This document shows, one piece after another, positions 11,301 to 49,059 of a DNA stretch of 64,000 bases. Source of the stretch: a virus; IMG/VR virus record IMGVR_UViG_3300045988_087221, one strand, 5' to 3'. Each line of letters opens with the position of its first letter. The first letter of the stretch is position 1. The notes beneath the pieces were generated by a model. That model saw only the letters and a program-made list of their open reading frames with translations, ran no database searches and was not told where the DNA came from. The translations under genes and the position numbers were made by a program.

Positions 11301-11923
11301 TGGATAAGAAAAGAATAATTATAGGAGACAAACAATATACTGTAGAAATAGCTAAAACTGAAGAAGATAGAAAGAAGGGGCTTCAAGATAGAGAATAGTT
11401 AGCACCTGATGAAGGAATGTTATTTATCTGGTCTGAATAGTAGCCAGTTATAGAAATGTGGATGAAAAATACTAAGATTCCACTTGACTAGATAGCTATT
11501 AATAATGATGATGAAGTAACTGCAGTATATAAAGCTTAGCCCGAAGATGAAACGCTACACCCATTTCCTAATGCTAAGTATATACTTGAAGTAAACTAGA
11601 ATTCAGGTATAGAAGAAGGAGATGATTTTGAGTTTGATGAATCTGATGACCCTAATAAATATGTAATGAAGGTACTTGCTCCTGATGGTTCGACTCAGAT
11701 GGATCTATAGGGTGGAGAACGCATATTTAGTAGAATTTCTACAAAATAGATGATTACTTGGGCTAAGAAAGCAGAAGCTAATAAAGATAATAAGGAGTTA
11801 TTTAACAAATACTGTAAGAGACTTGGTAAGAGAATGTTTAAAGAATTATATGCTCAAGACCACAGAGAACCAGAATATGTAGATGCTCCTGAATCTAAGA
11901 AAGATTAGAACGATAAAAAATAA
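11300..11923 (+). CDS. DUF192-family protein (207 aa); TAG-recoded
   Basis: The start is coupled as TAATG. DEGMLFIW...EMWMKNTKIPLDQIAI...AKYILEVN matches the DUF192 pattern GMLF...fWMknT.ipLD...yvLE. TAA at 11921..11923. Confidence 0.65.
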
Positions 11924-16759: not shown

Positions 16760-18622
16760 ATGATATTTAAGTTTCAATAGGGAGGAGCCACTCCTCCCTT
16801 TGTTGCTTATTAGCCAGTTATAGTGTCTGATAAGCGAACAACTGCCACTTAGGAAGAGGCATTGGCAGCAAAGGCTACTAAAGAATCTGAAAGTGGTAAG
16901 TTATCAAGCAAAGATTTGTATACAATGCTTAAAGAGAAATTGAAGGGACTTCCTAACGATGTAAATATAGCTATGAATTAGTTACAATAGCTTGAATAGC
17001 TTACATCAATGGATTTTGATGGTTCATTTACTTAGAACATTGAATCTAAGTATTTATCTACTTTACAAACTATGAATCAACTTTCATTTAGTAGAGAATA
17101 GTATGATAAAGCTTTAGATAATGTAAAATCTAATGGAGGACTTAATGAGGCTGCTATAGATTAGTATGGTCAAGTATATATGACTGATGGTAAAGACTAT
17201 AAATTAATGTCTCCTGAAGAAGCTAAATAGTCTGGATGGAAACAAATGACTAATTAGGATTTACTTTATTTAAGAGCTAATGACCCTAATTTATCAGGGA
17301 AAGATGAGATATTAAATGTAGTTAATAACGGTATAGGAATTAGTCAAGTAACCAAAATGATACAGGATAGTATTGGAAATTTAGGTACTAATAGTAATTC
17401 AGAAACTGCTTATGCTACAACTCAATAGGGTTAGCTTATACAAGGACTTAATGATTTTATTAAAGCAGCCCAAGAAACCGGGCAATATGATGCTTCTATA
17501 GAAGATTTATATAAAGCACAAATAATCAATAAAACACAGGCTCAGTAGGCTCAGTAGGCTATTGCTTATATATATAAAACATTACCACAGAATGCTAAAT
17601 CTTTATTAAAGACTAGAACTGAAGGAGGGACTGATAAGGAAGCTTTAAACTTAATTAGTACATTAGTATTATCCAAAACTAGTGAAGATAGATCTTTTAC
17701 TGCAGATTTAGAGGGTGGTCCTACTAAAAAATCTATGTCTAAAGATGCTAATGCTGGAAGTAAGGATGATACGGAGTTGAAAACATCTCTTCCATTACAA
17801 GTTATGTAGGATATGGGAGGAGCTGATATAGCTCCAGTAACTATTGATAAAGGTGATGGAGTACAAATGTCGGTATATGGTTCATTCTTCTCTGCTATCA
17901 ACGATAAAAAAGGTGAACCTATTGTTAATACTTCTCTATAGAATATGTTAGCTCAATCGGGTTTACAGGATATAGTTAAAAATGTTAGAAGTATAACTTT
18001 TGGAGATTAGAAACTTACTCCTGAGTAGTTATCTAAAATCACATATAACAATACTGGAATTGTTAGGGCTGACTTACCAGTAAATGAAGATGGAACTGTA
18101 AAACTAAGTGTTCTTGATGATTTTAATGCAGCTATGAATGAAATTAAAGGACTTGGAAATGCATCTAAGGAACAAGTAGAAGCTATTAAGGCAAAGTACC
18201 ATCTTGATCAGTATCTTAAAGATGATGGTACTCCTGATCCTAAACATACTGCTCCATTTATACTTACTGAAGGTTATACTACAGAGAAAAATGGTATTGA
18301 AGACACTGCATATGTTAAACATATCAAAAATCCTACGGATGATTAGATACAATTAATTAAAGATTCTCTTACTGTGGGTACTGGTAAAGATGCTAAAGTT
18401 CCAGATATAGATACTTTTGATTGGTACAATCCATTTGATTGGTTTGGTACTGAAAATATTTATAAAGCAACTGTATATATTCCAATATCTAATAATGTGG
18501 GTGCTGCTGTTAGAGGAGGTAATTAGAACTTAGATTATAATGAAGCTCTTAAATATGAAATGAAGTATAGGAACTTCTAGAGAATGAATAATGCAAAAAC
18601 TACAAGCGCTGACGTATTATGA
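16760..18622 (+). CDS. Virion-associated protein (620 aa), N-terminus MIFKFQQGGA; TAG-recoded
   Basis: The ATG at 16760 is 2 nt after the upstream TAA. Frame 2 is open to TGA at 18620..18622. Track ORF 18134 is in this frame. The ATGA-type overlap with the next gene is consistent with coupling. Confidence 0.65.
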
Positions 18623-21600
18623 ACGATTGGTTAGTGGCAAATATAAATAATCCCGATTTTACAGTTTCTGACTTTAAAAATATCGCGGATATGAGTATAG
18701 ATAATACACAATTTTTAAAGAAAGATTAGTATTTAAAGTCAGATTTTATTAAGAATAATCCTGCTTTTAAAGGAAACAATGGAGACTTTGATTAGAAAAA
18801 GTTTGATAAATATTATGATTAGAGACTTTAGGATTTCTAGTAGTTTAAAAATGATAAAACTCCAGCAGGATTTGAACTTGATGTTTTTGACACATTAAGA
18901 ACTCCTAATGATAAGGTTAGAAGTAATGGTCTTAAAATAGGTAGAGGTTATAATCCTGATAGATAGAAAATTGGTATTGAAGGAGTAAATGTTTGGAGTA
19001 AACCTGAACGTAGTAGATCGGAATTGGCTCAAACATAGAAAATATTTAATTCTGAGACTGGTAAATTTGAAAATTGGACACCAAATGATAATGCACTATT
19101 TAATGGTAAATCCGATTTTGGTTTAAGTTGGTTAAAATCTTTATTTTCAGACCCATTAGTATTGGCTCAATATGAAGAGGATACTATAGACAAAGATGGC
19201 ACTAAACATAAGAAAGGAGACTATAAATTAAATGAAGAAGGTACATATTATTATGAAACTTTAGGAGGTAGAAATCCCATTGGTAAACAAGTATTATCCT
19301 CTTTAGATACTCTTACTGTGGATGGTACTAAATTAAACAAATATGATTTCTTTGATTCTGATGATATTGAAAAGTCTGTAGGAGGGGTAATTGCTAAGAA
19401 TGTAGCTACTCTTATACCTATGTTTGTAGGGGGTCCAATTGGAACTGTTTATTCTACAGCTCTTATAGCTAGGGAAATGGCTAAGTCATTACCTATGTTA
19501 TATGGAATGACAACTGCTTTATTTAGTGATTCAGAAACTCCTAAATGGATGAATACCATAGCTGCTATGGGTGATAAATTTACTTCTGGAACTTCTGACT
19601 ATGCTAAAGAACATACCTTTAGTGTTGAAAACTTTGGTAATCTTATTTCTGATGTAGCTTTATAGTGGGGTCAGCAAAAAGGTATTGCCTAGGCTATTAA
19701 TAAACTAAAAGGTAGTAAGAATTATATAGAAGAAGCTATGGAAGATGCAGCTAAATTATACAAGGCTAAGGCTTCTTCTATGCCTATGTAGGCATTATCT
19801 TAGACTGGCAATTGGCAAGATAGTGTTTTAGGAGCTGCTTGTATTAAAAAATACTTACCAGCAGCTGAAAAAGCTATGAAAGAATCTACTTAGCTAGGAC
19901 GTGATGCTTCATTAGCTTATATGGCTATTGTATCTAATTCTGATGTATATGGGGATGCCTTACAACATGGTGCTTCTAAATAGGATGCAGCAGCTATAGC
20001 TTTAGGTAGTACTTTAGGTATGTATGCTGTAGACAAATATGCACATCTTGGAGAGTTGTTTTTTGATGATGCTACAGAAGATAGTGTAAAGGCAGCTAGA
20101 AATGCTATTAAAAATGAATTATTAGGAGAAGCAGACGAGAAAGGTGTTAGAAAGGGAGGTTTAAAAGCTATATTTGATCAAATAAGTGCTTCTAATGATA
20201 CTCCAGCTAATAAAGCAGTGTAGAAAATACATGCAGCCTTAAATAAAACTAAATCTTTTCTAGGTAACTATGCAGATGATTTAAAATACCATACTACAGG
20301 ATTTTTTGGAAAGGCTGCAGGTGAAGGTTTAGAAGAAGTAGGTGAAGAATTAGTTACAGATACTGCTAAATCTATATATTAGTTAGCAGGATTTTTAGGA
20401 GCAGATACTTCAACTGCTGATGTGGGAGCTTGGGATAATGCATTGGAAAGATATTCTATGTCATTTTTAGGAGGCGCTCTTGGTGGAGGTGTATTCTATG
20501 CAAAAGAAGCTTTCGATGGTGCTTCCTACAAAAGAGATAAATCTAATGAAGAATTAGCTACTTTAACTAGAAATGGGCATATAGGAGAATTACGTGATGA
20601 AGTAGAAAAGTTACGTAAGAAAGGTAAATTAGGAAGTACTAAATTATCTGCTAGTGATTATGAAACCACTTCTAAAGGAGAAAATGTTTGGTTAACTACT
20701 AATAATGAGAATGATTCTTAGAATTAGAAAATTGCAGACTTAATTAATGATAAAATTACAGCTATAGATACTGTAATAAATAATAATCAAGTTGGTTTAA
20801 CTGATGATTAGTTATTTAATACAATGGTATTAGGAGAACAAAGATATTAGATGTATAAAGATATTGCTCCTATAACTAATTATTATGAAGATTTTAATGA
20901 AGTCCTATCTAATTTAATTAAAGCTGAGTTAGACTACAGAACTGCTTCTCAAACATTAGATGGTTCTACAGAACTTACTGATTCTAATAAAATTACCGAC
21001 TAGAAACTTAGAGCCCTAACTCCTGAATAGCAACAAAATAGAAATAATGCTCTTGCTGTATTATAGTAGAAAGTAGAGAAAGCTAGACAAGCTAAAGATG
21101 AATTTTTATCAGGAGATACTTCTCTTGATTATACTCGTAAACTAAATTTTGCTCTAGACCCTAATTTACACAGTCCGTTTATGGATATAGATGCTGAAGC
21201 ATTGTGGAAAGAGTAGTTTGGGAATAAGTCCATGGATGAAATATCTGATGAAGATAAATTACATTTTTATACAGTAGTTTTACCAGAAAAATAGAAATTT
21301 TAGACTAAGGAAGCAATAACTAAATCTTGGGATAGATTTAAATAGATTGAAAAAGTTATTAATCCTGAGTTACATAATCTAACAGATAATGCTCCTCAGT
21401 TTAAACAATGGCATTAGAAATTTCAGCAAATAGTTAGTTAGTTAGATTCTAAGGATTTAATATCTAGCTATGCTAATTATGATACTAAATTAGATACAGA
21501 ATCAGATGACGAATATAATGCTAGAAATAGTAAATTGATAGACCCTGTAACTGGAGCAGAAGAATCTGATTAGGATTTTATTAATCGTAAGAATAATAGA

Positions 21601-24600
21601 ACACGTCAAATTGAAGCTCTTAACGATTAGAAAGATGCTGAGTGGGTTAATAATATAATGTAGTAGCTAGCTGTAGTAGGTAATTAGTTAGACCCAATAG
21701 CAGCAGGAACATTAAAGAAACTTATTCCTAAGAGAATTAAAGATGTATTAGCTAGAAAAATATAGTTGGCACCATTAAGTAATGAAGTTAAGAGTATTTT
21801 GGGTAATCTTAATACAGATTTAAGTAATACTAAGGAAGTATTAGATACTATTAAGAATAGTGCTTTAGCTAAAACTAAGAGTTTAGTTAAATAGAAAGCA
21901 GCAAGTATTCCTAAAGTTTATACAAATTTTAAAGGAGAAGAGTTAAATCCCGAAGATTTATTTACGATTGATGGGATAGAAGATATGACTATTTAGGAAT
22001 TAATAGACAATCCTTCTTAGTTATATGATATTGACGATGATTAGAAGTAGGATATTATTAATCAACTACAAGCTATTACTGATCCAGAATTATAGGATTA
22101 GATATAGAATATCTTAGCTAATATAAATGATCCTCAAGCTACTATATAGAATCTTAATTAGTTATAGAAATCAGCTCCTTAGTATAAATAGAAAATAAAT
22201 AGTTTATTAGATTTATATGAATTTAAAATATCTAAGGAATAGTCTGATAAAGTAGTTAATAATCTTATTGATTTAGCAAGTATAATTAATCCTGATACTA
22301 GTATATCTTCATTAGTAAATGATGATATGGGAATCTAGGATTAGTTAGATTCAGATGTTGAATCATATGTTTCAACATTAACTCAAGGTGTAAATAATGA
22401 AGTAAATTCTTTAGTTGCAGATGTAGGTAACAATGCTATAGTTAAATTACATAACTCCATATAGAGTACTATTAAGAATCCAGTAATTGAATTAGTTAAA
22501 TCTCTTGCAGGAAAAGTTCTTGATAAAACTCAAATGCCTGATGTTATTGATACTTTAACTAAATTAGACACTAATTTTGATGAAGTTGAAAATATTGGAG
22601 AATTAGTACTTGATGGAGAGCAAATGAAAACTCTTTAGAATACTAGAGATGCTTTGGCTATGGTAGCTACATATTTATATGCAGCTTCTAGTACTCCTAC
22701 AGGTAACAATGTTATAGGACATAACAAAGTAATAAATGAGTATGCTAAAAAACATAGTGACGCTGTTCAAAACTGGGAAGAACTTCCTGAAATTGATGAT
22801 GATTATGCAACTATATATTAGGAGCAACTTAATTAGTTTATAAAGACTCTTGATGCTTGGATTGATTTATCTAATAATAACGATATAAATAAGAGAAGAC
22901 AATTTGAAGAAACTGATAAAGCTTTAACTAGAAGTTTTAATGGTTTATGGCAAGCTAATAAACAACATTTTGTTATCGATGTAAAAGATAAACATTATAA
23001 CTTGTTAGAAGGTAGTTTGGATGATAATGTTCCAGATGTTTCTCTATTTAATTATGAAAAGGCTTTTTATGGTAATTTTTAGAAAGCTCTATAGGAATCA
23101 GGAATGTCTGTCTCTGAGTTTTTAAAAGAATCTAATATTCTTGACAAACTAATTAGTTTTAATTAGTTAGGAGATTAGAGAAATACTCGATTAAACCCTA
23201 AAATGTAGTATGGAGATATGTCAGAATATGACAAACTCCAATATTTAGCAACTATATTATCACTTAATCCAGTTGATTTTTATAACTTTTTAAAAACTTC
23301 AGTAGGATAGAACTCTGATAAAGCACCAATAGCTAGTCAGGAATATGCTTCAAAAGTAGCTATTGCTTAGACTACTTAGACTTATAGAGATATAATGAAA
23401 TATGCTTTTGATAAGTCTGGAAGTAATTTGTATAATGCTAATAATACAGTAATAATTACTGGTGATGCTGGTAGTGGAAAAACTTCTGTAGTAGGTAAAT
23501 CTGTTATTGATTTTCTAGGACCTGAGACCAAAGTACTATGTGTGGGACCAACTTCTACATAGGCTTAGGGATTACTTACCTCATTTGGAAGAGGAAAGTC
23601 AATGGATATTGAATCCTTAATGAGAAAACTTTTAGGAGACACAGTTTGGGCAGATTTAAAATCAGATTTAGATATAGAGTATAAGCCAAGTAAAAACTAG
23701 TTAGAGAAAGATTCTGAATACTTTAGTTATTCTGCAGGTGATTTTGCTTAGACTAAACTTAAAAAAGACTTTACGTTTAATTAGTTAGATGAGATTCCAA
23801 GTATATTAGCTATAGATGAAGCTACTCATATCCCAGCTCCGGTACTCCAAGTTTTAGATACTTATATGTAGAAAAATGGAGGAACTTTAATGTTACTTGG
23901 AGATGAAAAATAGAAAGGGTATTATAATAAAAATAATGCTATAGGCAATATGAGACCTGTAGATTTATTTGCTTCTAGAACTCCTGAATTAAGTGTATCT
24001 TTACGTGATAATAATATTTAGAAACAAGCTAATTTGAACAGCGTAAAGACTATCTTATCTTAGGCTATTACAAATATGTATGAAATGTCAGAATCTGATT
24101 TATCATCATATTGGAAAACTATTAATCCTTTACTTTCTAAATTGAACTTTAGAGTTTATAATTAGAATACTTTAGCAGGTGATTTAATTACCAAGACTTT
24201 ATCAAATGATACCATTAATAAATTAAAAACTTCTACTAATGTGGGATTCATTGGAGATACGTCTAGTGCTGCATACTAGGCTATGAAACAAGCAGGTATG
24301 AATCCTACTGTATTATCCAAGGATTAGATGTAGGGTTAGGAGTTTGAATATGTAGTAATTGATCAACCATTCACTAAACCCGATGCAGATTTCCATATTA
24401 GAGACTTTTTACAAGATTTATATACTTTAATGAGTCGTGGTAAAACTGCTTCTATTTTTATCGATAATGGATTAAGTAATATCATAGGTAATAATACTCA
24501 AGATGATTATACTGCTAAAGCTCCTAGTCTTAAAGATAAGATTAATGGAAAAAGTACTATAGAGTAGCTAAAAGAACGTAAATTATCTATATTAGATTAG

Positions 24601-27600
24601 TTAGATTTATCTCCTATTGAAGGTTTAAATGAAACATCTAATTAGACTACTTAGTAGGCTATAAATCCTACAGATTTTAAAGCACCTGAATCTTTAAATA
24701 TAGATAAAGATACTGAAGAAGCTGTTAATTAGTTAATTGATTCTGAAGAAGAAACTAAAGATTCACATGAAGTTGAAAATTCAATAAAAAGTGAATTTAC
24801 AGTAATGTCTTGGGGAGATTGTACTTTAGTTGGAGCTAAAGCTGTGGAAGAAACTCATAAAGGTAAAAATGGTAAAGAGTATAAAGGAAATGCATGGCAT
24901 TTTGGACCCGATTAGAATGGGGAGTTACGTAATATATCAGCTTTAACAGATTAGAAATCAGTTTTCTGGTATACAGATAAGCAGACTTTAGAAAAATAGC
25001 TATATTAGGTAAAATCTGCTTTGATTTTTAATCATAGTTATGATGAAACCATTTTAGGTACACATACTAGAGTAATGCCAACTTGTATAACTGACAACTT
25101 TAGTAAAGCTGATTGGGATGCAGGCACTTATGAATTAGAGATTCGTTCTGTTGAAGGGGAAATTCAACCCTCTTTTAAGCCTATGCCAGAAGTAGGTATG
25201 ACTTATAAAGGAAATAAGTATGTGGCTAATATTATATTTAAAGTTAAAAATAAAAAAGGACAAATATGTAAATTTGACTTAGCAGGTATTAATAATCCTG
25301 AGACTTTAGCTAGCAATTTAAGTAAAATAAAAGACAGAATTAGCCAAGAACTTTCTGATCCAACTATTTCTAATGAAAGAAAATCTAAATTACAAAATAT
25401 CCTTAGTACAATCGAAAATAGGTCTTAGAAATGGGCTAATTTGTTTGATTCTTGGATAAACAAATATAATAAAGAAGGTAGTTTTTCTATAGATATAAGT
25501 AAAGCAATAGTTAGATAGAAACATACTTGGTTTACTAAAAGAACTGGATCTGAAATAAGACTGGGAGGTAGAATTGACCCTAATGCTGTTGATAACACTA
25601 AGGATTTTAATAATATGAAAGACAGAAATCCTGGATTTGTATTTTCAGAAGTATATACTTATGCAGCTAAAGACCCTACTCTATTGAATATTGACCCTTC
25701 CTTAAAAGGAAAAGCAGTAGTATTTGTTTCTTCTGATACCTTATTAAAACCAGAAGATTTAGTTAAATAGTACATAAAACAAATTCAAGATCCAGAACAT
25801 AATTAGCCTATAGTTAGAATGATTAGACTTCATAATTATGGTATGACCTTTAGTCAAATGACAAGTAATGAATTCTGTAATAAAATTTAGGGAGGAGATG
25901 ATACTCGACTTCCTTATAGAGCTAATTATCATGGAATTTAGATGTTTGTTTCCTTATGGAACTGGAGAGCTGCTTTAAGTAAATTTAATGAAGCTTTAAA
26001 TAATTGGATGTAGGAAAATTAGTACGATGCTAAGAAACTAGACACATTAATTAAAGCTCAAAATTACTTATTTAATAATAAATAGGTAGATGCAGACACT
26101 TATTTAACTAGTAAAAAATTAACTAGAGCTGATTTAAATAATTTAGAAAAGTTTAACTAGGAAGTATGTAAAGATATACCTACCTTTAGATTAGGTTACT
26201 CAAAAAAACATGACTTTCATGTTTAGCGATTTAAAGTTGCAGGTAGTTAGGCTTATAGAAATAAGTCTGAAGCTAATTTAATAGTTATAACTCCTGATAA
26301 AGCCAAGCAGTTCTATTAGTTAAGTAATAGAATATTAGGAGCCATATGTCCTTCTCCTTATGTTGATACTTTAGGTCTTTAGTTATTACATCCTGGTGCT
26401 TAGAATCCTGATGGAACTAGAGAACCTGATACCCCTTGGGAAGAAAATGAATTTATTGATATAAATAGTGCTGATCATTAGAGAACTCTTTCTGGTTTAT
26501 TTACGTCTGATTTAAGAATTGTAGAAACTAAAAAGGATAAATCTAAAATAGACATTATTTATAAACAAGGTGAGTAGTGGTCTGCAATCCCCAGATATTT
26601 AAATAATATCCTTAGAACCGTTACATTCTTTTAGTATAATCCTGATTAGCTTTCAGGCACCTATACAGAATCTGCTAAAGTATCTTGGGATGATAATGGA
26701 ACAAAGAAAACAGTAAGTACTTAGATAGGGGATTTATTTGGCAATGGAGGATTATTAAAAACAAGAAATGATACCAAAGTTAAATCAGGAGAACATCCTG
26801 ATAGAAGTCTTGCAGATATGTTCGACTTAATGTTCCATGGAACTACTGATGATATTCATAGAAAATATGATAAGAACAATCCATTAATGAGAGCAGATGA
26901 TGCTAGATTCCCTTATGGCTTTTTTATTAATCCTGATATATCTAGAACTAAAGAGAGTGCTAGTTCTACTGATATAATTAGTATTAAAGCAGGAAAAGAA
27001 ACTGTATTTTATCCTATTAAAACCTCTGATGAATTATTTACTTCCGACAATGATTTAAGAGCAGCAGGAATTGATTTATCTATTGATGAACTGTTAAATA
27101 ACACAGTAAGTCCAACTAATTCTACAAATACTTAGACTAGTACTGCTCCAGCAACTACTCAGCCTAAAATAATTCCATTAGAATAGAGAATGCCTGTAGC
27201 TGCAGAAGTTCTTAAACAGGTTAATGACTCAGGTTTTAACTTTGATGAAGATACCCTAGAAGAGGCTGTTGATAAATTAAATGAAATTACTAAGAACTCG
27301 ATAATAGATGTATTTAAAACAGTTGGTTAGGACTAGGCTTTAGAGCTGCCTATAAATTACACTTATTAGAAAACTGGAGATGTTAAGAAATAGACTTTAA
27401 AGGATATAATTAGTTCTTAGGTTCAAGGAGAATTTAATTTAAAAACTAAGAGTATTAATGGAGAATCTAAATTAATAGTGGAAAATAACGGAACTGAGTA
27501 CGAATTAGATACTGAAACCTGGACTCTTAAAGGCGATTAGGTATAGAAAGTCAATAATAAATTGGATGAGTTAATTAACTTTAACGGTAAAGAAGTAAAA

Positions 27601-27840
27601 AAATCAGTAGCCCTTAATTAGCTATTAAATAGTTAGGAATTTAAAAATAAACTTGACGATACTAGCACTCTAGATGAATTTATATAGAAATTAAACACTC
27701 TTATAAATAATGCTAAAACTCTTAATGAGGATTAGATTTCTGAGGCATTACATAAATTGAAAGATGACCTTAATTATGTAGATATAACTGGACTAATATA
27801 TGATGATTATCCAGAGTTATATAAAATATTTGAATGTTAA
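18619..27840 (+). CDS. Giant protein (3073 aa) with an embedded SF1 (RecD/Pif1-like) helicase core and hydrophobic N-terminal segments; TAG-recoded
   Basis: ATG at 18619, TAA at 27838..27840. Track ORFs 19162, 20020, 20422, 25021 and 26818 are all in frame 1. I read 20.7-23.5 kb codon by codon and found only TAG interruptions. Confidence 0.7.
23461..24480 (+). other. SF1 helicase motif set inside the 3073-aa protein
   Basis: Walker A is VIITGDAGSGKTS (23461..). Walker B is ILAIDEATH (about 23803..23829). Motif III is LLGDEKQ, with Q = TAG at 23911..23913. Motif V is MQGQEFEYVVID, with the Q of QG = TAG at 24331..24333. Motif VI is LYTLMSRGKTASIFI. Confidence 0.7.
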
Positions 27841-30800
27841 TGGCAGTATGTAACTTGCTAAATACCTATAGTCCAGCAGATATAGGTAGAGCCTTAATGA
27901 CTTATTCGCGTGACGAGAATGCTGATAAATTTATTGATAGATTTATAAACAAATAGGGAATACCTAAAACAACTAGATATAAATTAGATTCGTTAGATTC
28001 TGAAGATAGTATTTAGAAATCTATTCAAGGATTTAATAAATCTATGGATGATGCAATAGCAGCACTAACTTCTAGAAAACCGGATTTGCTTCCTAAATTT
28101 AATGAATTAAGAAGTAAAGTATTAGAAACCCTTCATGTAGACTTAGACGAACACTCGTCTGGGTCTACTCCAGAGGGAGATAGTTCTATTGAAGCTAAAA
28201 CTACTTTTGAAATATTAGATAATAATTAGTTAAGTTTAGATGAACATCTTAAAGAAATATATGGTACTGGAGCATATAATATTATTAGACAACTAAAAGA
28301 AGGATTTAATGACAACCTTTTTGCAGCATGTTATTATAATGTAGCTAATGGAGTCTTAGTTGTACAAGCAGATAATGTGTTAAATTAGAATCTTATTAAT
28401 CTTAAAAATAAATATTTTAAGTAGATAGTAGAATATTTAAAGTCAGTAGATTCTAAGTATGAAAAATTACCTAATGAATTTGTAAATGAAGAAGGATTTA
28501 TAGGAGGTAAGTATTTTTATGTAATGCAAGCTTTTTATGATCATATGAAACATATTCCTAATTTACAATAGACTCTAGATAGTTTATCCTCTAAAAGACT
28601 TAATAATTATGATAAAGTATCTAATACACAGGCATATACTTAGGTAGTAAATGTTTTATTACAAAATCCGGATTTTAAAAAGACCCTATTTAATATTTAT
28701 AGGTCTGGAAAATAGCAAGATAATGTAAGGAATACATTGTATTTAGCAGACCATTTGTCTTCCTATTTCTATGAAGTTAAAAGATTATTAAATACTAAGA
28801 AATATCAAGATTTATTAGATACTGAAATAGACGGAAAAACAATCAAAGATATATTAGATAGTTTTGAATTAGAAAATAATGATTTATTAAATGCTGCAAA
28901 TGCGTATACCTCTCTAATTCATTTTGATGAAATGCTAGTAGACTCTTTAGGAGATGCCATTGACATCAAACAGGGATAGAAAGGAATGGAGTTTGGAGAC
29001 CCTACCAAATATTCATACAAATAGGAAACAGCTCATTAGAAAAAAAGTTGGCAACAAAGTGAATCAGTAGAATCAGAAAAATATATAGCAAATGTAGTTA
29101 AAGCATTCTTTAGTTAGATAAGAGTGTTAAATTATAAAACTGACCAATTTTAGAATAGAAGATTAAATAGCACTTCAGTTATTGTGGCTGCCAGAAATCT
29201 TATTGATGATGTTCTATATAATAAACTTGATTTATTGCAATGGGCTAGGAATAACGATAATAGGGAATAGGCTGTTAATGATTTTGCTTTAGCTTTAATA
29301 GATTTACATGAGAATCCATAGAATTAGTTATATAAAGCCTTAAGTTTGTTATTTGAACCGATAAAAGGAAGCAGTTAGAGATTAATTGACACAATTCCAT
29401 TAAATAATACTACTGCGACTACCGAATATGATTTAAATATATTATATTCATTATATGAAGCTGCTTTAAATGAAAGTAATCCAAATTCTTTAAGATCTTA
29501 GGAATTAAAAAATGCTAAACAGATAAACGGTACAGTTGCTTAGTTGTCTGCTGAAATATCGGGTATTATAGATAGGAATACTACTATGCATTATCTTGAA
29601 ACGTCTTTTGATGGCAAAACTGGTATGGTTCAAATTAAGGTAAAGAAAAGATACTTTAATAATGCAGATACTTACAAAACTAGGGTAAGAATTAATAGAA
29701 ATATTAATAATGCTTCAGCTTCTGAACGTGAAGCTAGACGTAGTAAGTGGTAGTTTGACACTATTAATACTGTAGATGGCAATAAACAGTATTCTATAGT
29801 AATTGGAGATGAAAAAGTTACTTATATATCTACTCAGATATTAAATTCCGATGGTAAATATTAGAATAATGAATTATTTAATGATTTAAATAAAATTGAT
29901 TTAACTTCCTTTAGATAGAAATTACTTAGAAATGAGGAACTCACTGAACGGGAAAGAAAATTAAAAGATCTATTATCTTTTATTGATGACCATTTAAGTT
30001 TAAAGATTCTAGATAACCCTTCATAGAAAATTCAGCAGCTTGAGATATTTCAGTAGTTAAATAAGGATAATTTAAAGAATTTAACTACGTTAGCTATTAA
30101 AGCAGCCTATGTTAATTATCTCTATGATGAGGCTGGAGACTAGGATTTTGCATAGTATTTATCTAATACAGGTAAAGATGGAATTTATCGAATTTATGAA
30201 AATAATAAAAAGAGCAAACTGTTTACTAATATGTTTAATAACTTAAAAATTACAGTTGCTTCTTTTAAGGATAGTATACTTGAAGCTTGGAGTGACGCTT
30301 ATTCCATGTAGTCAGGAGAAGCTTCTAAGGCTACTACTAAAAATAAAGCTGGTGATAATATTCCAAATAATAGTGTAAATAAATTAGGTACTAATATTCA
30401 TCATTATTTATTTAAATAGAAAGATACTAATGCAAATAGTTTGTTCTTTGTTCAAGATTCTACTAAAATTAAAGGTATTCAACATGACTTAGAAGCTACT
30501 TCACAGTGGCAAGAGTCTAAATAGTTAAAGAATTTTTCGTAGGGAGAGTTATTCTTTCATTCTGTATTTAATAAGTTCTGGGGAAGCTATTTACAATATG
30601 GAACATTTATAATATAGCCTACAGCTTATTCTGATAAAACTACTTTCATTAATTATGAAATTACTAAGAATCTATTTGGAGACGATATTATAAATGATGA
30701 AAATCTAAAAGACACTATAGTTAAAGAGACTATTAACACTATAGGCACCTTTTATAAAAATGTATGGAATTCAACTAAAAATAAACTGCAAAGACTAACT

Positions 30801-33800
30801 GATGCCTATAATAATTAGCATGGGACTAACTATACATATCAATAGATGTTAGCTAATATTACTGAGCCAGAATTAATTAAACTAGCTGATTCCATTGGCG
30901 AGAAAGTTACTTTAGATGCTGATTATCGAAAGGCAGGTAAACATTTAGCTGTAAATGAACTCTTATAGTATTATGCCGAAGAGTTATATGCTAACAAAGG
31001 CACTTTGAATGCCTTCTTAGAGCAATAGAAACATTTATTTGTACAAAACTTTCTTGATAATAACTGCACTTATCAAGTAGTTAATTTAAATGATTCAGTA
31101 GATAATTATTATGGTGAAAAGTTACCTGAATCTATTTCTAATAATCCTATCATGTAGACTATTTTAGGATTATATAAGAATGACTCTAAGGGTAGAAGTG
31201 CTTTCTTTAAAAACTGGGTAGATGCTAAGACAGGTAAGTTGATTTTAGCTAAATAGAATGGTTTAAACATTATATCTAATACTAAAATAGATTCTAGTAA
31301 AGATATTGTAGTAAATCCATTGCTTGATAAATTCTTCTATGTTGAAGGATTCTTAAGTAATAATTTACGTATGAGTTTAACTGGTTCTGAGATTAATCAC
31401 CCGGATAAAGCTAAACAAACCACCTATAATTTAGTAAAATCTTGTGATAATTCTGTAGATTTCTTTACAAAAACTAAAATGTAGGTAGATGAAAATACTT
31501 TCTAGCAAGCTAAAGAGTTTTTAAATACAACTAACTCTGTTGCTGACTTAAAATATACTACAATACCTGCTAATATATCAAGCTTTATAAATGATATTTA
31601 TCATTAGTCTATGACTATGATAGCTAATGTAGCTTAGGGTACTTAGTTTAAGCGTAATGTAATTATACCTGCCACTTTACAGTACTGTCTACCTAAAGTT
31701 ATAAATGGTATTTCTGCTAAAACTAAATGTGCAGTAATTAGAGACGAGGGCGCCTCAGTGTATAACTATAGAGGAGACCATGAAGATGATATTGATTCTG
31801 CGGATGGTTCTGCTCAAATTAATCCATTCTAGTCTATTTTGGAGAATAAAGCATTAGGTTCTCAGGCTGTAGGATTTATTAAAAAACCTATTTGGCATGC
31901 TTATGACCCAGTAACAGGTACTGCATTCTTAGCTAAGTTTGCAACCGATACTATCACTAATGAAACTATGCGAGCTTCCTTAAATTCTCACACTAGTCTT
32001 TTTAAAATGTTTAAAAAGATGACTAACTTACCATGGAAGGGTGATGTGGATTTAATGCAATCCATAGCTTTAGGTAATCTTGATGAATCTAAAACTTTGG
32101 CTACAGTTAGGTGGTTTAATAATGTTATTCTTGGAAATGCTGACGGAATTAAAAACAATTAGTTATACTATAAAAATAAATATGGTGACTAGGTTCAAAT
32201 TACTGGTTTTAATAAAACTATAACTAAAGAAGGAAATACTCTATACTATACTACAGAGGCACCTGTAATTAAGGGTATAGAAGCTCCTTCGCATAAAGTG
32301 TATCATGTATTTTATGATTCCCCTAACTAGAAAAGTAATCATATTACTTTTGATACTTGGCAATAGGCATAGGCATTTTTAATGGATTAGTCTAATCCAG
32401 AAATGACTAATAAACATACCATTAATTCTTTATTTGAATTACATACAGCTTTAGGAGGTATTAATTGCATTGATAGTAAGGGAAACTACTCAGAATTTAG
32501 TAACGAGGTGGTTGTTAATTTTATGAATGCAGTTGGTCATAAAGTTAATGAAGGTACTGACAATGTTCCTCTTGATTAGGATAATTATATATAGCCTCTT
32601 AAATAGTATCATATTGGTTATGCTTTAAATAATACAGCAGTAAAAAATGGTGCATAGAATATTAATCAGTCTAGTGCTTGGTATGATGATAAAGACCTTA
32701 GTTACTTTGAAGTAGACTCAGATGGTCTTGGAATGTAGATGAATGCTGACCATGATATTATAGACTCTGAACTTACAGAGTTTTCTTAGGTTATTACTGC
32801 TACATCAGCATATGGATTTACCTATGATAACACTGATGAAATATTTTAGGGTCTTGGAAGAGCTTCCTTAGCTACTACTAAGAAAATGAGTAAAGCTGTA
32901 GATACTTTTATTCAGAATTTTGAAGATCCAAAACAAGCTTAGTCAGATTTATATGACGCTATTGGTAGAATTGTAATGAAATCTTCTTCTATTAAAGATA
33001 GGGAGAGTTTATAGCATGTAATTATGTAGGCAGTAGAATCTGTATTCTATAAAAGTAAAAATCACTAGCAAGATAGTTCTAAAATACCATTTAGTGACCC
33101 TAATGTATATTCTGATTTCATTGCTACATTAGCCAGTACAATTAACAAAGAAGCTATCAAACGTAAGCACCCAGGTTCTGGATGTGTTATGGTTCCTGCT
33201 TATCATATGATTCAATATTTTGAATTTGGTGGTGAAAAATTAATGGCAACTGACATCTTAAAAAGAGCATAGGAAGATTATAAATAGTCTCTAATTACTC
33301 TATTATAGGGTCATCAGGATTATACTCCAGAAACTAATTCTATAGGAGAGTTTTTTATAAATGGACAATCCATTAAATAGTTAGAAGATTAGGTACAAAA
33401 ATTAAAAATAGAAAATCCTGATAGAATTGATACATAGGATATAACTAGTTATAATCATTAGCTTATTTAGAGATATTTAAATAGAAAGCAACAAGAAGTA
33501 GAAATAAGACCTGATAAAAGTTGGTTTATGCCTTCCGATAATGTAAATATTATTGACTCTGAAGGCAAAGTTCATACTGTAGAATTAAATTCTATGGATG
33601 ACTATTACAAGTTTAAGGATGGAATTAACGATATAGAAATAGCTAATAATGTATCTATAAAAGTTGATTATAAAAAAGGTACATATAAAATAACTTCACC
33701 TACAGCAGAGTTAAATTTAACTAAGGTTGATGGTAAATGGATAGCAGACTCTTCAGAATTATCTGCTATAGCTACTTAGTTGGTTGGTAAAGTTATACTA

Positions 33801-36800: not shown

Positions 36801-38138
36801 CCTAAAGAAGGGGCTAAGGAAAAGGAAATTTAGGAAGCAGAATAGGCTAAAGAATAGTTAATTAATAGACTACACGAAAATAATCCTACTTTGGACCCAG
36901 AGTATATAGCAAATGAGTTAGATATTGCTCACGAACAAGATTTAATTAATAACTTTGATATATATAAATATTTAGTAGATGATGAATATAGAAAACAAGC
37001 ATCTGATTACTATGATATAATTAAAAGTACTGCTAATGTGTTTGAAATGATGGAGTAGATTCCACATTATAAATAGATTTTATAGTTGTTTAAGTCACTT
37101 GTTGTAGCAAATAATACCTTTGCATCCAAAAGTAGATTAGTTAATAAGCTATTGGCTAATTCTGAAAGTGTTAATGATAAATAGTTAAATGGAGTAATTA
37201 AATATGTGGATAAGTTAAATACATTATCTTTTATGAGAACACTCACTCCTATAGCTGTTAATTAGGTAGATGGATTTGATCCATATTTTTAGAGCATTAA
37301 AGTCAACAAAATCGATCCAAGTACTATAAATGGTATAGCTACTTTAAAACATTGGGTTGAGCATGAGTTTCTTAGTTACTTAAAGGAAAATTACTCTAAT
37401 AATTCTTTAGTTAAACATCTTACCTTAGTGCCTTATAATAATACAGAGGTATTAGCAACTGATATAGATTTGCTTAATCCTGATATAACCATATAGTCTA
37501 GAGAGGCTTATGATGATATATTAAGAGGAATGGCTGATTTTGAGACTAGATAGTACTAGGGGGATTATACTATTGCAGATATTTTACAAATGTATAATAT
37601 AGCAGTAAACAATAACTAGTATGGTGGTGAACGTCTTACTACATCTTTTAAAGTTTGTACTAATCCTAAAAATATTTTAAATTAGTATTTAAAATTTATA
37701 TCCGATTAGGACTGGGATATCGAAACAGATTAGGAATATAACTATACTGATTATTAGATAGCAGCGGCTCCTATAATCAGTACTTATGCGGAAAGCTACC
37801 ATTAGGAGCCTTTTGTTAAAGTAAATAACCCTATTCGGAGATATGTACTCAAAAAATTAGATAGTAATAACTAGTACTAGGAGTATGATTTAATTCCACC
37901 GCCTGTACCAGATGAAAACTATCAAAGTAAAATGAATAGATTGCAGAATTTTAGTGAGAATAGTCCTTTAGAAATGCCTAATATGCATAATACATTATTC
38001 TTAACTAAGACTGTGGATTTTGATGGTAAATTTGAGGATTTAGATGCAGATGAACAAAAATAGACTATAGATGGTATTAGAAACTTGTTAACTTAGTATA
38101 TAACTTCTAATAAAGCTTCACTTATAAAAGACTGTTAA
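27840..38138 (+). CDS. Giant protein (3432 aa) with two double-psi beta-barrel RNAP-like motifs: candidate crAss-type virion-packaged RNA polymerase; TAG-recoded
   Basis: ATG at 27840 (TAATG coupling), TAA at 38136..38138. Track ORFs 28044, 28737, 29544, 31839, 33528, 35154 and 36408 are all in frame 0. Confidence 0.7.
31803..31829 (+). other. Possible beta-subunit-like DPBB segment (ADGSAQINPF)
   Basis: DDIDSADGSAQINPFQSILENKALGSQ loosely parallels bacterial beta ...dG.pvDiilNPlgvPSRMniGQ. This is tentative and by eye only. Confidence 0.35.
35007..35141 (+). other. Beta-prime-like DPBB catalytic segment: AARIPAQSLQS ... GSDYDIDKAYIM
   Basis: It parallels NRAPTLHRLGIQAF ... NADFDGDQMAVH of multisubunit RNAPs and the DYDGD motif of QDE-1-type enzymes. 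D-Y-D-I-D is encoded at 35127..35141. Confidence 0.6.
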
Positions 38139-45752: not shown

Positions 45753-45753
45753 A

Positions 45754-46640: not shown

Positions 46641-46651
46641 TTATAATATAT

Positions 46652-47371: not shown

Positions 47372-47422
47372 AATAGTTTTATATTAATGTTCTCTGCTTC
47401 TCCTACTTTCTTATTAGAAATT

Positions 47423-47764: not shown

Positions 47765-47784
47765 ATTAATTAGTTATTAATTAA

Positions 47785-49057: not shown

Positions 49058-49059
49058 TT

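What the first reader, a model, noticed from the sequence alone, without database searches (positions are those of the whole stretch)
18619..27840. A complete SF1 helicase motif set is embedded in a 3073-aa virion-block protein next to the RNAP gene
The giant ORF immediately upstream of the RNAP candidate is translationally coupled to it. About 1600 residues in, it contains an ordered SF1 (RecD/Pif1-like) motif set:
- GDAGSGKT (Walker A);
- ILAIDEATH (Walker B);
- LLGDEKQ (motif III);
- QGQEFEYVVID (motif V);
- LYTLMSRGKTASIFI (motif VI).

Its N-terminal third contains hydrophobic Gly-rich segments, such as VATLIPMFVGGPIGTVYSTALIA near 19400 and FLGGALGGGVFY near 20470. This is the sort of sequence expected of an ejected or internal virion protein.

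A helicase or translocase delivered with, or acting beside, the injected RNAP could drive genome entry or early transcription. I do not know of a characterised example, so this is worth a careful look.
Basis: partly seen in the sequence, partly recalled or inferred. Interest (0 to 1): 0.75.

Follow-up and report, generated by a model that had tools for sequence, protein, structure and literature searches.

The report
Helicase inside a giant crAss-like phage protein
A 3073-residue late protein of a Zeta-group crAss-like gut phage carries a real, strictly conserved SF1B (RecD/Upf1-like) helicase module and always sits just upstream of the phage's virion RNA polymerase gene, so it may be a helicase delivered with the polymerase, but packaging into the virion has not been shown.

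Summary
Window 18619-27840 is one 3073-codon frame with 121 in-frame TAG and no TAA or TGA before the final TAA. The + strand late block reads TAG as Gln. All five quoted helicase motifs and both hydrophobic segments are at the stated positions.

The helicase call is supported:
- Pfam AAA_30 and AAA_19 score above their gathering cut-offs.
- The family profile matches Upf1 in the PDB.
- A confident AlphaFold model of a 43%-identical homologue matches only SF1 helicases (nsP2, RecD, RecD2, nsp13, Dda, Upf1).
- The catalytic residues are invariant in 75-76 of 76 sequences (75 representatives at 50% identity plus the window protein).

The phage is a Zeta-group crAss-like phage, judged by TerL affinity and gene-for-gene synteny with phage Lera. 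The gene order "~620 aa, giant helicase protein, RNAP" recurs in every lineage examined.

Public records already label homologues "RecD-like protein" or "Helicase", without any study. Virion packaging is only inferred, from position, late TAG-recoded expression, and a C-terminal Cys shared with the RNAP. crAss001 and phi14:2 have no such domain.

My best reading is a co-delivered helicase that serves the ssDNA-preferring virion RNAP or genome entry (about 0.45).

The parts
18619..27840 (+). Giant late gene: 3073 aa with 121 TAG read as Gln. Its ATG overlaps the upstream stop (ATGA) and its TAA overlaps the RNAP start (TAATG).
   Evidence: The nearest public protein, P0263, is 94% identical over the full length.
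18619..20718 (+). N-terminal module (aa 1-700), the best-conserved part of the protein (33-54% identity to MT835470 and MT835492). No known domain.
   Evidence: identity by 100-residue bins; invariant columns, for example GEGLEEVxEELVTD and RYxMSFxGGxxGGGLFY; no Pfam hit.
19375..19470 (+). Hydrophobic segment, aa 253-284 (includes VATLIPMFVGGPIGTVYSTALIA). Borderline transmembrane.
   Evidence: Kyte-Doolittle 1.35-1.48 over 19 residues.
20452..20499 (+). Gly-rich conserved motif, aa 612-627 (YSMSFLGGALGGGVFY).
   Evidence: R, Y, G, G, G and F columns invariant in 15 divergent homologues.
20719..22623 (+). Poorly conserved middle region rich in Q, D, N and K, aa 701-1335.
   Evidence: 11-29% identity to MT835470 with many gaps.
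22624..23418 (+). Helical domain before the helicase, aa 1336-1600. It is conserved together with the helicase.
   Evidence: P0001 aligns to aa 1336-2036; helical, pLDDT mostly 70-95 in the model of P0001.
23431..24498 (+). SF1B helicase core, aa 1605-1960 (RecA-like domains 1A and 2A).
   Evidence: AAA_30 in 15 of 15 homologues; Upf1 E 7e-6 across the core; AlphaFold model and Foldseek matches.
23461..23484 (+). Motif I / Walker A: GDAGSGKT.
   Evidence: (G-x-x-G-x-G-K 75-76 of 76, T or S 76 of 76).
23545..23562 (+). Motif Ia: GPTSTQ. Q1648 is a TAG codon.
   Evidence: P 71 of 76, Q 71 of 76.
23803..23829 (+). Motif II / Walker B: ILAIDEATH.
   Evidence: D and E 75 of 75.
23893..23913 (+). 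Motif III: LLGDEKQ. The invariant Q1765 is a TAG codon.
   Evidence: Q 75 of 75.
23977..24021 (+). Motif IV region: RTPELSVSLRDNNIQ.
   Evidence: R1796 75 of 75, N1799 73 of 75.
24325..24363 (+). Motif V: QMQGQEFEYVVID. The invariant Q1905 is a TAG codon.
   Evidence: Q 75 of 75, G 74 of 75, E 75 of 75.
24418..24450 (+). Motif VI: LYTLMSRGKTA.
   Evidence: T and R 75 of 75.
24796..27837 (+). C-terminal module, aa 2060-3073, of unknown fold. It ends in the conserved terminal Cys (…KIFEC).
   Evidence: no Pfam domain; Cys in the last 6 residues in 71 of 73 homologues.
27840..38138 (+). Virion-type two-barrel RNAP candidate, 3432 aa from the conserved M-A start. Catalytic GSDYDIDKAY motif near aa 2430. 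Ends …LIKDC.
   Evidence: Lera's homologue is annotated as DNA-dependent RNA polymerase.
16760..18622 (+). Conserved 620-aa upstream partner gene of unknown function.
   Evidence: a protein of 614-709 aa lies in the same position in every lineage examined.
38142..40727 (+). 861-aa protein with a zincin HEMAH motif. Ends …KEFGC. Positional counterpart of phi14:2 gp65.
   Evidence: bioRxiv 10.1101/2020.03.07.982082.
40727..45250 (+). 1507-aa protein with weak similarity to crAss001 gp49, an RNAP-associated virion cargo protein. Strong transmembrane segment at aa 1386-1412.

Best explanation
The gene encodes a modular giant late protein of a Zeta-group crAss-like phage. It comprises a conserved N-terminal module with Gly-rich hydrophobic motifs, a variable linker, an enzymatically competent SF1B (RecD/Upf1/Dda-type, presumably 5'-to-3') helicase/translocase core, and a C-terminal module.

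It is made late, by TAG-to-Gln read-through, from the same operon as the virion RNA polymerase.

I infer that it is packaged with the polymerase and ejected into the next host. There its ATP-driven motor would work on the entering genome in one or both of two ways:
- It unwinds duplex DNA to give the QDE-1-like, ssDNA-preferring virion RNAP a template.
- It helps pull the roughly 180-kb genome in.

Shown: the ORF, the recoding, the SF1B domain, conservation of the catalytic residues, the lineage, and the invariant synteny with the RNAP gene.

Inferred: late timing, packaging, ejection, polarity, and cooperation with the RNAP.
For: ORF and code:
- 121 in-frame TAG and no other stop.
- TAG positions align with Gln in the standard-code homologue MT835470 in 19% of cases, against a 4% background and 21% at CAA/CAG positions.
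- Conserved or invariant Gln residues of motifs Ia, III and V are TAG codons.

Domain:
- AAA_30 and AAA_19 score above the Pfam cut-offs.
- AAA_30 hits all 15 of 15 divergent homologues.
- The family profile matches Upf1 across the whole core, E 7e-6.
- The AlphaFold model has pLDDT 80.5 and pTM 0.78. It matches only SF1 helicases with probability 1.0, best E 1e-10.

Selection on catalysis: the Walker A Lys, the Walker B Asp-Glu, the motif III Gln, the motif IV Arg, motif V Q-G-x-E and motif VI T..R are invariant in 75-76 of 76 aligned sequences, 75 representatives at 50% identity plus the window protein.

Lineage:
- TerL of the relative MT835470 matches only crAss-like phages.
- The gene order DUF192, then a ~620-aa protein, then the giant, then the RNAP, then a ~900-aa protein, then a ~1500-aa protein is the same as in the Zeta phage Lera.

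Link to the RNAP:
- The adjacency and same-strand overlap recur in the window, 11 IMG/VR contigs, MT835470, MT835492 and three Logan contigs.

Indications of late expression and cargo status:
- TAG recoding is confined to the + strand block that holds the muzzle-like, SLT and RNAP genes. The replication block on the - strand has none.
- In phi14:2 and crAss001 the genes in this position, including the RNAP and its neighbours, are virion proteins by mass spectrometry.
- The giant, the RNAP and the zincin-motif protein share a conserved C-terminal Cys: 71 of 73 homologues against 1.1% expected.

Rationale for a helicase partner: phi14:2 gp66 transcribes only single-stranded or denatured DNA in vitro, and its eukaryotic relative QDE-1 needs the helicase QDE-3 and RPA.
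Against: - There is no proteomic or structural evidence that this protein, or any Zeta-group homologue, is in virions.
- Profile comparison detects no homology to the verified virion proteins phi14:2 gp67 or crAss001 gp45, gp46, gp47 and gp49.
- crAss001 and phi14:2 have no Walker A motif in any protein of this block. A co-delivered helicase is therefore not a general requirement of crAss-like virion RNAPs.
- SF1B helicases move on single strands. Duplex 'pulling' is not their textbook activity.
- Only one weak candidate transmembrane segment exists.
- In the MT835492/P0085 sublineage the helicase half is a separate protein.
- The structural model is of a 43%-identical homologue, not of the window protein.
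Confidence: 0.45

Rival explanations
1. The protein is made late but is not packaged. The helicase works inside the producing cell, for example in resolving or processing replicated or concatemeric DNA for packaging, in late recombination-dependent replication, or in clearing transcription complexes from DNA about to be packaged.
For: SF1B helicases such as Dda, RecD2 and Pif1 are typically replication, recombination or repair enzymes (fold matches). No virion evidence exists. There is no homology to verified cargo proteins. Gene position alone is weak evidence.
Against: - The gene lies between the muzzle-like tail gene and the virion RNAP gene, not in the replication block on the other strand.
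- It is translationally coupled to the RNAP gene in every lineage.
- A size of 3000 aa, an N-terminal hydrophobic Gly-rich module and the shared C-terminal Cys resemble the neighbouring cargo-type proteins more than a soluble replication enzyme.
Confidence: 0.27
2. The protein is an ejected weapon or shield. The RecD-like motor, possibly with the downstream 1507-aa protein (whose Lera counterpart is annotated 'exonuclease V'), either attacks host or competitor DNA, or occupies the ends of the entering genome to block host RecBCD and other end-dependent defences.
For: Lera's annotation names the two proteins 'RecD-like protein' and 'exonuclease V'. Structural matches include RecD inside RecBCD. 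Phages commonly deliver end-protecting proteins with their DNA (established knowledge: T4 gp2, Mu Gam).
Against: - No nuclease domain was found in the giant protein or in the 1507-aa protein by Pfam or PHROGs.
- NCBIfam gives no RecD family match.
- The 1507-aa protein instead shows weak similarity to crAss001 gp49.
- Nothing links the locus to defence systems.
Confidence: 0.1
3. The helicase-like region is a structural remnant. It is an ATPase fold kept as scaffold within a large structural or ejection protein, with no motor function.
For: UvrD_C_2 scores below its Pfam cut-off. The domain is so diverged that phmmer finds no cellular helicase. The N-terminal module is more conserved overall than the helicase region.
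Against: Every residue needed for ATP binding, hydrolysis and coupling is invariant across about 75 clusters that are otherwise only 20-45% identical. A scaffold would not preserve that pattern.
Confidence: 0.04
4. The single ORF is an annotation artefact. The helicase is really a separate gene, or the frame is interrupted.
For: The frame holds 121 standard stop codons. In the MT835492 lineage the gene really is split into 1540 + 1556 aa.
Against: - All the internal stops are TAG and none is TAA or TGA.
- The same holds for the whole + strand block, while the - strand genes avoid in-frame TAG.
- The standard-code relative MT835470 has an uninterrupted 2970-aa ORF collinear over the full length.
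- More than 70 representative clusters are 2,600-3,600 aa.
Confidence: 0.02

Closest known systems
Giant 'RecD-like protein' / 'Helicase' of Zeta-group crAss-like phages (Lera ORF 191, PV725988; UniProt A0A8S5RTY8 and A0A8S5TKT5)
   Same: - Similar size: Lera ORF 191 is 8346 nt.
- Same gene order (DUF192, then a ~629-aa protein, then the giant, then the RNAP).
- Same embedded SF1 domain. BFVD A0A8S5TKT5 is 39% identical to the modelled homologue, E 8.9e-52.
- This is the family the window protein belongs to.
   Different: Those records carry only automatic names. No paper discusses the protein. The Lera article mentions it only in a supplementary table. Lera recodes TGA whereas this phage recodes TAG. 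Lera's RNAP gene is interrupted by a homing-endonuclease element whereas this one is intact.
RNAP-associated virion (cargo) proteins of cultured crassviruses: phi14:2 gp67/gp65 and crAss001 gp47/gp49/gp50
   Same: - Very large proteins encoded next to the virion RNAP gene on the late strand, downstream of the muzzle/tail genes.
- Found in virions by mass spectrometry.
- phi14:2 gp67 occupies exactly the same position, immediately upstream of the RNAP gene, and also ends in Cys.
   Different: No detectable sequence or profile similarity. None of them has a Walker A or helicase motif set.
SF1B helicases: RecD/RecD2, Dda, Pif1, Upf1, nidovirus nsp13, alphavirus nsP2
   Same: Full ordered motif set I-VI, a two-RecA-domain fold, and Foldseek probability 1.0.
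   Different: - Sequence identity is only 10-16%.
- There is no NCBIfam or PHROG family match.
- The domain is embedded at residue ~1600 of a 3073-aa protein rather than free-standing.
- There are no RecB/RecC partners.
- The accessory 1B and 2B domains were not resolved here.
QDE-1 with the QDE-3 helicase and RPA (Neurospora RNA silencing)
   Same: crAss-like virion RNAPs are structural relatives of QDE-1. QDE-1 needs a DNA helicase and an ssDNA-binding protein to obtain its single-stranded template. A helicase gene coupled to the RNAP gene would be the phage counterpart of that partnership.
   Different: QDE-3 is a RecQ-type SF2 helicase and is not a virion component. The parallel is functional only and is untested here.
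Poxvirus cores, which package helicase-type ATPases (NPH-I, NPH-II, A18) together with the viral RNA polymerase (my own knowledge, not checked with the tools)
   Same: The concept of a virion delivering its RNAP together with nucleic-acid motor enzymes needed for early transcription.
   Different: These are eukaryotic viruses with SF2 enzymes encoded as separate small proteins. There is no evolutionary relation.
Ejectosomes of N4-like phages (vRNAP plus two ejection proteins) and T7 gp14/15/16
   Same: Giant ejected proteins that form an envelope-spanning conduit. Genome entry is coupled to an enzyme working on the DNA (abstracts of PMC13434306 and PMC11445570).
   Different: In those systems the motor is the RNAP itself, and no helicase domain is reported in an ejection protein.

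Membership tests
Superfamily 1 helicases, SF1B branch (RecD/Pif1/Dda/Upf1-like) | Walker A (motif I) GxxxxGK[ST] | tested here: met
   GDAGSGKT at aa 1615. Lys is present in 76 of 76 aligned sequences.
Superfamily 1 helicases, SF1B branch (RecD/Pif1/Dda/Upf1-like) | Walker B (motif II) with acidic DE | tested here: met
   ILAIDEATH. D and E are present in 75 of 75.
Superfamily 1 helicases, SF1B branch (RecD/Pif1/Dda/Upf1-like) | Motifs Ia, III (GDxxQ), IV (Arg), V (QGxE) and VI (YTxxTR) in canonical order | tested here: met
   All are present in order and invariant or nearly so.
Superfamily 1 helicases, SF1B branch (RecD/Pif1/Dda/Upf1-like) | Profile match above the curated threshold | tested here: met
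   AAA_30 scores 35.1 bits (cut-off 27) and AAA_19 scores 30.0 bits (cut-off 25.1). UvrD_C_2 scores 25.7 bits, below its 27.4 cut-off. AAA_30 hits 15 of 15 homologues. Upf1 matches in the PDB at E 7e-6.
Superfamily 1 helicases, SF1B branch (RecD/Pif1/Dda/Upf1-like) | Fold of two RecA-like domains | tested here: met
   The AlphaFold model is of the 43%-identical homologue P0001 (pLDDT 80.5). The top 50 Foldseek PDB matches are all SF1 helicases or SF1-type helicase-domain proteins, mostly SF1B. It was tested on a homologue, not on the window protein itself.
Superfamily 1 helicases, SF1B branch (RecD/Pif1/Dda/Upf1-like) | Accessory domains 1B (pin) and 2B, and 5'-to-3' polarity | tested here: inconclusive
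   The model places a beta-hairpin between motifs Ia and II (P0001 residues 364-377) and a helical insert between motifs IV and V. Their equivalence to the pin and the 2B domain was not established. Polarity needs biochemistry.
Superfamily 1 helicases, SF1B branch (RecD/Pif1/Dda/Upf1-like) | DNA-dependent ATPase and unwinding activity | not testable with these tools
   Needs purified protein.
RecD proper (exonuclease V alpha subunit) | Match to curated RecD family models, and RecB/RecC partners | tested here: not met
   NCBIfam gives no RecD model hit. RecD appears only as a distant fold match at 11-14% identity. No RecB- or RecC-like genes lie nearby. The public label 'RecD-like' describes the fold only.
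Zeta-group crAss-like giant helicase-protein family | Protein of about 2,800-3,600 aa with the SF1 core near residues 1250-2100 | tested here: met
   The window core is at aa 1605-1960. About 85 representative clusters have the same layout. There are 1220 clusters at 90% identity, the nearest 94% identical.
Zeta-group crAss-like giant helicase-protein family | Conserved gene order: DUF192, then a ~620-aa protein, then the giant, then the RNAP (DxDxD) | tested here: met
   Seen in the window, L001 and L002, L003-L013, L017, L019 and L020, and the Lera table.
Zeta-group crAss-like giant helicase-protein family | The genome belongs to the crAss-like assemblage | tested here: met
   - TerL of the relative MT835470 hits only crAss-like phages, at 24-33% identity.
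- The portal and major capsid proteins hit PHROGs.
- The muzzle-like, RNAP and gp49-like proteins have weak matches to phi14:2 and crAss001.
- The window itself holds no TerL, so the assignment is by homology and synteny. Assignment to Zeta specifically rests on synteny with Lera.
Crassvirus virion cargo / RNAP-associated proteins | Gene located between the muzzle/tail genes and the virion RNAP gene on the late strand | tested here: met
Crassvirus virion cargo / RNAP-associated proteins | Sequence homology to a verified cargo protein | tested here: not met
   hhalign of the family profile against crAss001 gp45, gp46, gp47 and gp49 and phi14:2 gp67 gives probability below 10% in every case. The targets were single sequences, so sensitivity was limited.
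Crassvirus virion cargo / RNAP-associated proteins | Physical presence in purified virions | not testable with these tools
   I found no proteomics of a Zeta-group phage in the literature searches.

The most novel reading that the evidence does not exclude
The giant protein is an ejected motor tethered to the envelope. Its N-terminal Gly-rich hydrophobic module would join the trans-envelope conduit. Its SF1B core, on the cytoplasmic side, would reel in and unwind the leading end of the roughly 180-kb genome and hand single-stranded template directly to the co-ejected QDE-1-like RNA polymerase. This would be the first phage shown to deliver a helicase with its DNA. It would also explain how a crAss-like virion RNAP that is inactive on duplex DNA starts transcription. 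The shared C-terminal Cys would be a common tag for packaging or assembly of this ejected set.
Probability: 0.25. Interest if true: 0.8.

Novelty: new variant of a known kind. Interest (0 to 1): 0.58.

Why it matters
Crassviruses are the most abundant phages of the human gut. How their virion RNA polymerase starts work on double-stranded DNA is still open: the only enzyme studied, phi14:2 gp66, transcribes only single-stranded or denatured DNA in vitro.

A catalytically intact helicase is genetically welded to the RNAP gene throughout the large-genome Zeta lineage. That gives a concrete, testable candidate for the missing template-opening or genome-entry activity.

If it is packaged, it would be the first virion-delivered helicase described in a phage. 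It would be a prokaryotic parallel to poxvirus cores and to the QDE-1/QDE-3 partnership.

The locus also gives clean evidence for TAG=Gln recoding, because invariant catalytic Gln residues are encoded by TAG. It reveals an unexplained C-terminal Cys signature shared by the putative ejected proteins.

If the protein is not packaged, it is simply an unusually large late helicase, already auto-annotated as RecD-like, and of modest interest.

Tried and rejected
- PHROGs gave no family for the giant, the RNAP, the 620-aa, 861-aa, 1507-aa, 531-aa or 770-aa proteins, or their MT835470 counterparts. One of 15 giant-protein homologues hit phrog_298 'exonuclease'.
- NCBIfam gave nothing relevant.
- phmmer of the helicase segment and of the RNAP against PDB sequences gave no hit.
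- Megablast of 22 kb against the phage collection gave no match. tblastn found only two unannotated records, MT835470 and MT835492.
- The word-indexed protein search with the recoded segment found only three fragments.
- Single-sequence AlphaFold failed, with pLDDT 35.8.
- hhalign of the family profile against crAss001 gp45, gp46, gp47 and gp49 and phi14:2 gp67 found no homology.
- hhalign of a two-sequence RNAP alignment against phi14:2 gp66 was uninformative.
- No tRNA, and so no suppressor tRNA, lies in the window.
- Yutin et al. 2018 could not be read. The figures of Yutin et al. 2021 that show the domains of the Zeta transcription block are images only. I therefore cannot say whether the helicase domain was drawn there.
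- Lera's GenBank record is not in the local collection.

Ideas considered and rejected:
- Split or false ORF, rejected and the standard-code homologue.
- A degenerate ATPase, rejected.
- A true RecD orthologue, rejected.
- An inserted mobile element, rejected because the domain is at the same place in all family members.

Full report
**1. The observation**

With the standard bacterial code the region has no ORF longer than 167 aa. Translating 18619-27840 in frame gives 3073 sense positions if TAG is read through. There are 121 in-frame TAG, and no TAA or TGA until the terminal TAA at 27838.

Reading TAG as sense raises the window's long-ORF content from 14.7 kb to 58.5 kb. It also resolves the + strand (194-45250) into a tight series of overlapping genes, each with 2-130 TAG codons. 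The - strand genes (45540-64000) have essentially none.

The giant gene's ATG overlaps the stop of the upstream 620-aa gene (ATGA). Its TAA overlaps an ATG of the next gene (TAATG). Homologues conserve the Met-Ala that corresponds to the ATG at 27840, so the RNAP gene most likely starts there rather than at 27834.

**2. TAG means Gln**

In the full-length alignment with the standard-code relative MT835470, window TAG positions face Gln in 19 of 100 cases. The background Gln frequency is 4.1%, and the figure at window CAA/CAG positions is 21%.

More tellingly, the Gln of motif Ia (Q1648), motif III (Q1765) and motif V (Q1905) are TAG codons in the window. Those positions are Gln in 71-75 of 75-76 family sequences.

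No tRNA gene lies in the window. The suppressor must be elsewhere in the genome or come from the host.

**3. The helicase domain is real**

- Pfam AAA_30 (35.1 bits, cut-off 27) and AAA_19 (30.0 bits, cut-off 25.1) pass their gathering thresholds on the 540-aa segment. UvrD_C_2 covers motifs V-VI at 25.7 bits, just under its cut-off of 27.4.
- AAA_30 is found in 15 of 15 divergent homologues, best E 2.7e-12. No other Pfam domain recurs.
- A profile of 15 homologues matches yeast and human Upf1 across the entire core, E 7e-6, with weaker matches to Pif1, IGHMBP2, nsp13 and RecD.
- The structure tools would not accept the TAG-recoded translation. I therefore modelled P0001, a 710-aa public fragment that is 43% identical to window aa 1336-2036.
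- The model without an alignment was useless, pLDDT 35.8. With 15 homologues it is confident, pLDDT 80.5 and pTM 0.78.
- Foldseek against the PDB returns only SF1 helicases or SF1-type helicase-domain proteins, with probability 1.0: chikungunya nsP2 (E 1e-10), RecD in RecBCD, RecD2, nsp13, the tobamovirus helicase, Dda, Upf1 and Dna2. These mostly belong to the SF1B branch.
- TM-scores are low (0.25-0.42). The model carries about 270 extra helical residues, and domain orientations differ.

**4. The catalytic residues are under selection**

An exhaustive HMMER search of 1.84 billion representatives with P0001 found 168 proteins. About 85 of them are proteins of 2,800-3,600 aa with the helicase region near residues 1250-2100. 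No ordinary cellular helicase reached E 0.001.

In an alignment of 75 of these representatives plus the window protein (76 sequences), the following are invariant in 75-76 sequences:
- the Walker A G-x-x-G-x-G-K
- the Walker B D-E
- the motif III Gln
- the motif IV Arg
- motif V Q-G-x-E
- motif VI T-x-x-x-R

The same columns are among the few invariant ones in a full-length alignment of 15 members that share only 18-44% identity. This argues strongly for a working ATPase motor rather than a relic.

**5. Anatomy of the protein**

Identity to the distant relatives MT835470 and MT835492 is highest in the first ~700 residues (33-54%), low and gappy in residues 700-1330, about 20-36% in the helicase region, and 15-28% in the C-terminal 1000 residues.

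The N-terminal module carries invariant motifs (GEGLEEVxEELVTD; RYxMSFxGGxxGGGLFY). It has one moderately hydrophobic stretch at aa 253-284. No family, PHROG or PDB match exists for anything outside the helicase.

In MT835492 the gene is split into 1540 and 1556 aa, about 70 residues upstream of the helicase. An independent protein, P0085, is 91.5% identical and starts at the same Met. The split is therefore real in that sublineage, and the protein is modular.

**6. What phage this is**

The - strand block encodes PolA, RNA ligase, thymidylate synthase, DNA ligase and phosphoesterases.

The + strand block has no PHROG matches. It does contain an SLT transglycosylase gene (10638-11300) and a DUF192 gene (11300-11923).

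The 2185-aa protein (2506-9063) has weak collinear similarity to the muzzle/tail proteins phi14:2 gp71 and crAss001 gp44. The RNAP candidate has weak similarity to crAss001 gp50 around the DxDxD motif, and the 1507-aa protein to crAss001 gp49 (small-database E-values of 2e-4 to 0.04).

The standard-code relative MT835470 has a TerL whose only relatives in the phage collection are crAss-like phages, at 24-33% identity. It also has a portal and a major capsid protein that match PHROGs.

The order DUF192, small ORF, ~930-1700 aa, ~620 aa, giant, RNAP, ~900 aa, ~1500 aa is the same as ORFs 195-186 of the Zeta crAss-like phage Lera. There the giant is listed as 'RecD-like protein' (8346 nt), and the RNAP is interrupted by a homing endonuclease (PMC12386605 Table S1).

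Close relatives in IMG/VR sit on contigs of 102-225 kb, within or near the Zeta genome size range. In MT835470, and probably also in two Logan contigs, the RNAP ORF is broken. In MT835470 the break is exactly at the DxDxD motif. Yutin et al. 2021 described this for the Zeta group. In the window the RNAP gene is intact.

**7. The link with the RNAP**

The neighbour carries ARIPAQ…GSDYDIDKAYIM. This matches the catalytic signature of phi14:2 gp66 (YRIPNQ…GSDFDIDKMYVM) and crAss001 gp50.

The giant gene lies immediately upstream of this gene, on the same strand and usually overlapping it, in:
- the window
- 11 IMG/VR contigs
- MT835470 and MT835492
- three Logan contigs whose giants are only 28-40% identical
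- Lera

**8. Is it a virion protein?**

This is not shown. These points favour it:
- Position between the muzzle-like gene and the RNAP gene.
- Confinement of TAG recoding to this block. In recoded phages that marks late genes (Yutin et al. 2021). A late-made enzyme can act at the start of infection only if it is carried in the particle, exactly as the RNAP is.
- In phi14:2, g065-g071 are all virion proteins by MS/MS. In crAss001, gp45, gp46, gp47, gp49 and gp50 are virion cargo (PMC10172136).
- An unexpected shared signature. Cys makes up only 0.18% of residues in the family, yet 71 of 73 full-length members have a Cys within the last six residues (1.1% expected). The RNAP (…DC, …NC) and the zincin-motif protein (…GC, …NC) of the window and its relatives end the same way. 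So does phi14:2 gp67 (…TIC).

These points count against it:
- No profile similarity to any verified cargo protein.
- No proteomics for this lineage.
- Cultured crassviruses have no helicase motif anywhere in this block.

**9. Mechanism**

The most economical reading is that the protein is packaged and ejected with the RNAP, and that its SF1B motor acts on the incoming DNA.

The rationale comes from phi14:2. Its virion RNAP transcribes single-stranded or denatured DNA but not native duplex in vitro. Its structural relative QDE-1 depends on a helicase and RPA.

A helicase loaded at the entering end could supply template and, if anchored, also contribute to internalising a very long genome. These steps are inference.

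The rivals are a non-packaged late DNA-processing helicase, an end-protecting or host-attacking activity, and a structural relic. They are weighed in the rival-explanations section. The relic idea is the one the data most clearly disfavour.

**10. Novelty**

The family is abundant in public data: 1220 clusters at 90% identity, some with hundreds of members, the nearest 94% identical. Members already carry automatic names: 'Helicase' for A0A8S5TKT5, 'RecD-like protein' for A0A8S5RTY8, and Lera ORF 191. The domain itself is therefore not a discovery.

I found no paper that discusses it, and none that reports a helicase domain in any phage ejection or cargo protein.

I rate it a new variant of a known kind: crassvirus RNAP-associated giant proteins, here with a motor module. 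It is of moderate-to-good interest because it makes the open question of template opening by crAss-like virion RNAPs directly testable.

Noticed in passing
window 194-45250 (+) versus 45540-64000 (-): Stop-codon recoding is strand- and module-specific. Every + strand late gene holds 2-130 in-frame TAG codons. The - strand replication and nucleotide-metabolism genes (PolA 54924-57110, RNA ligase 60033-61406, and DNA ligase, ThyX-like and NUDIX genes) hold essentially none. No tRNA gene, and so no suppressor, lies in the window.
   Followed up: partly
C-termini of window 18619-27840, 27840-38138 and 38142-40727; also L001, L002, L015, L017 and 73 family representatives: A conserved C-terminal Cys. 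71 of 73 giant-protein homologues have a Cys in their last six residues (Cys frequency 0.18%, chance 1.1%). The RNAP and the zincin-motif protein also end in Cys in the window and its relatives. phi14:2 gp67 ends …TIC and crAss001 gp47 ends …RCNS. It may be a common signal of the co-packaged set. I know of no explanation.
   Followed up: partly
window 27834-27842: The RNAP gene has two candidate ATG codons, at 27834 and 27840. Homologues conserve the Met-Ala at the second, which gives a TAATG stop-start overlap with the giant gene.
   Followed up: yes
L001 19800-26645 and 27682-30657; L019 11386-21384; L020 15244-25244: In relatives the RNAP gene is broken. In MT835470 the break falls exactly inside the GSDYDID catalytic motif. 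A LAGLIDADG ORF lies in the gap in L019, and a homing endonuclease in Lera. In the window the gene is uninterrupted (3432 aa).
   Followed up: partly
L002 10226-14854 and 14833-19503; P0085: In the MT835492 sublineage the giant gene is split into an N-terminal protein (1540 aa) and a helicase-plus-C-terminal protein (1556 aa), in different frames with a 22-nt overlap. An independent protein 91.5% identical starts at the same Met, so this is not an assembly error.
   Followed up: yes
window 38142-40727: The 861-aa protein has a zincin HExxH motif (HEMAH at aa 718) and no Pfam or PHROG match. It is the positional counterpart of the zincin-containing phi14:2 gp65 and of the C-terminus of crAss001 gp47. 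The MT835470 counterpart has HEFAH.
   Followed up: partly
window 40727-45250: The 1507-aa protein has a strong transmembrane segment (aa 1386-1412) and weak similarity to crAss001 gp49. Its Lera counterpart is annotated 'exonuclease V', but no nuclease or helicase domain was detectable here.
   Followed up: partly
window 10638-11923: An SLT lytic transglycosylase gene (10638-11300) and a DUF192 gene (11300-11923) sit between the muzzle-like gene and the giant proteins. This fits a set of proteins that act on the cell envelope during ejection.
   Followed up: partly
window 2506-9063: The 2185-aa protein has two collinear weak matches to phi14:2 gp71 and one to crAss001 gp44. It is probably the muzzle protein homologue, about 800 residues longer than in the cultured crassviruses.
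   Followed up: partly
window 12387-16757 and 16760-18622: The 1456-aa protein has a long Gly/Ala/Ser-rich hydrophobic stretch near aa 590-700 and a strongly basic C-terminus. The Cys-free 620-aa protein is conserved in position in every relative. Neither has a detectable family. Both are candidates for ejection-channel proteins.
   Followed up: no
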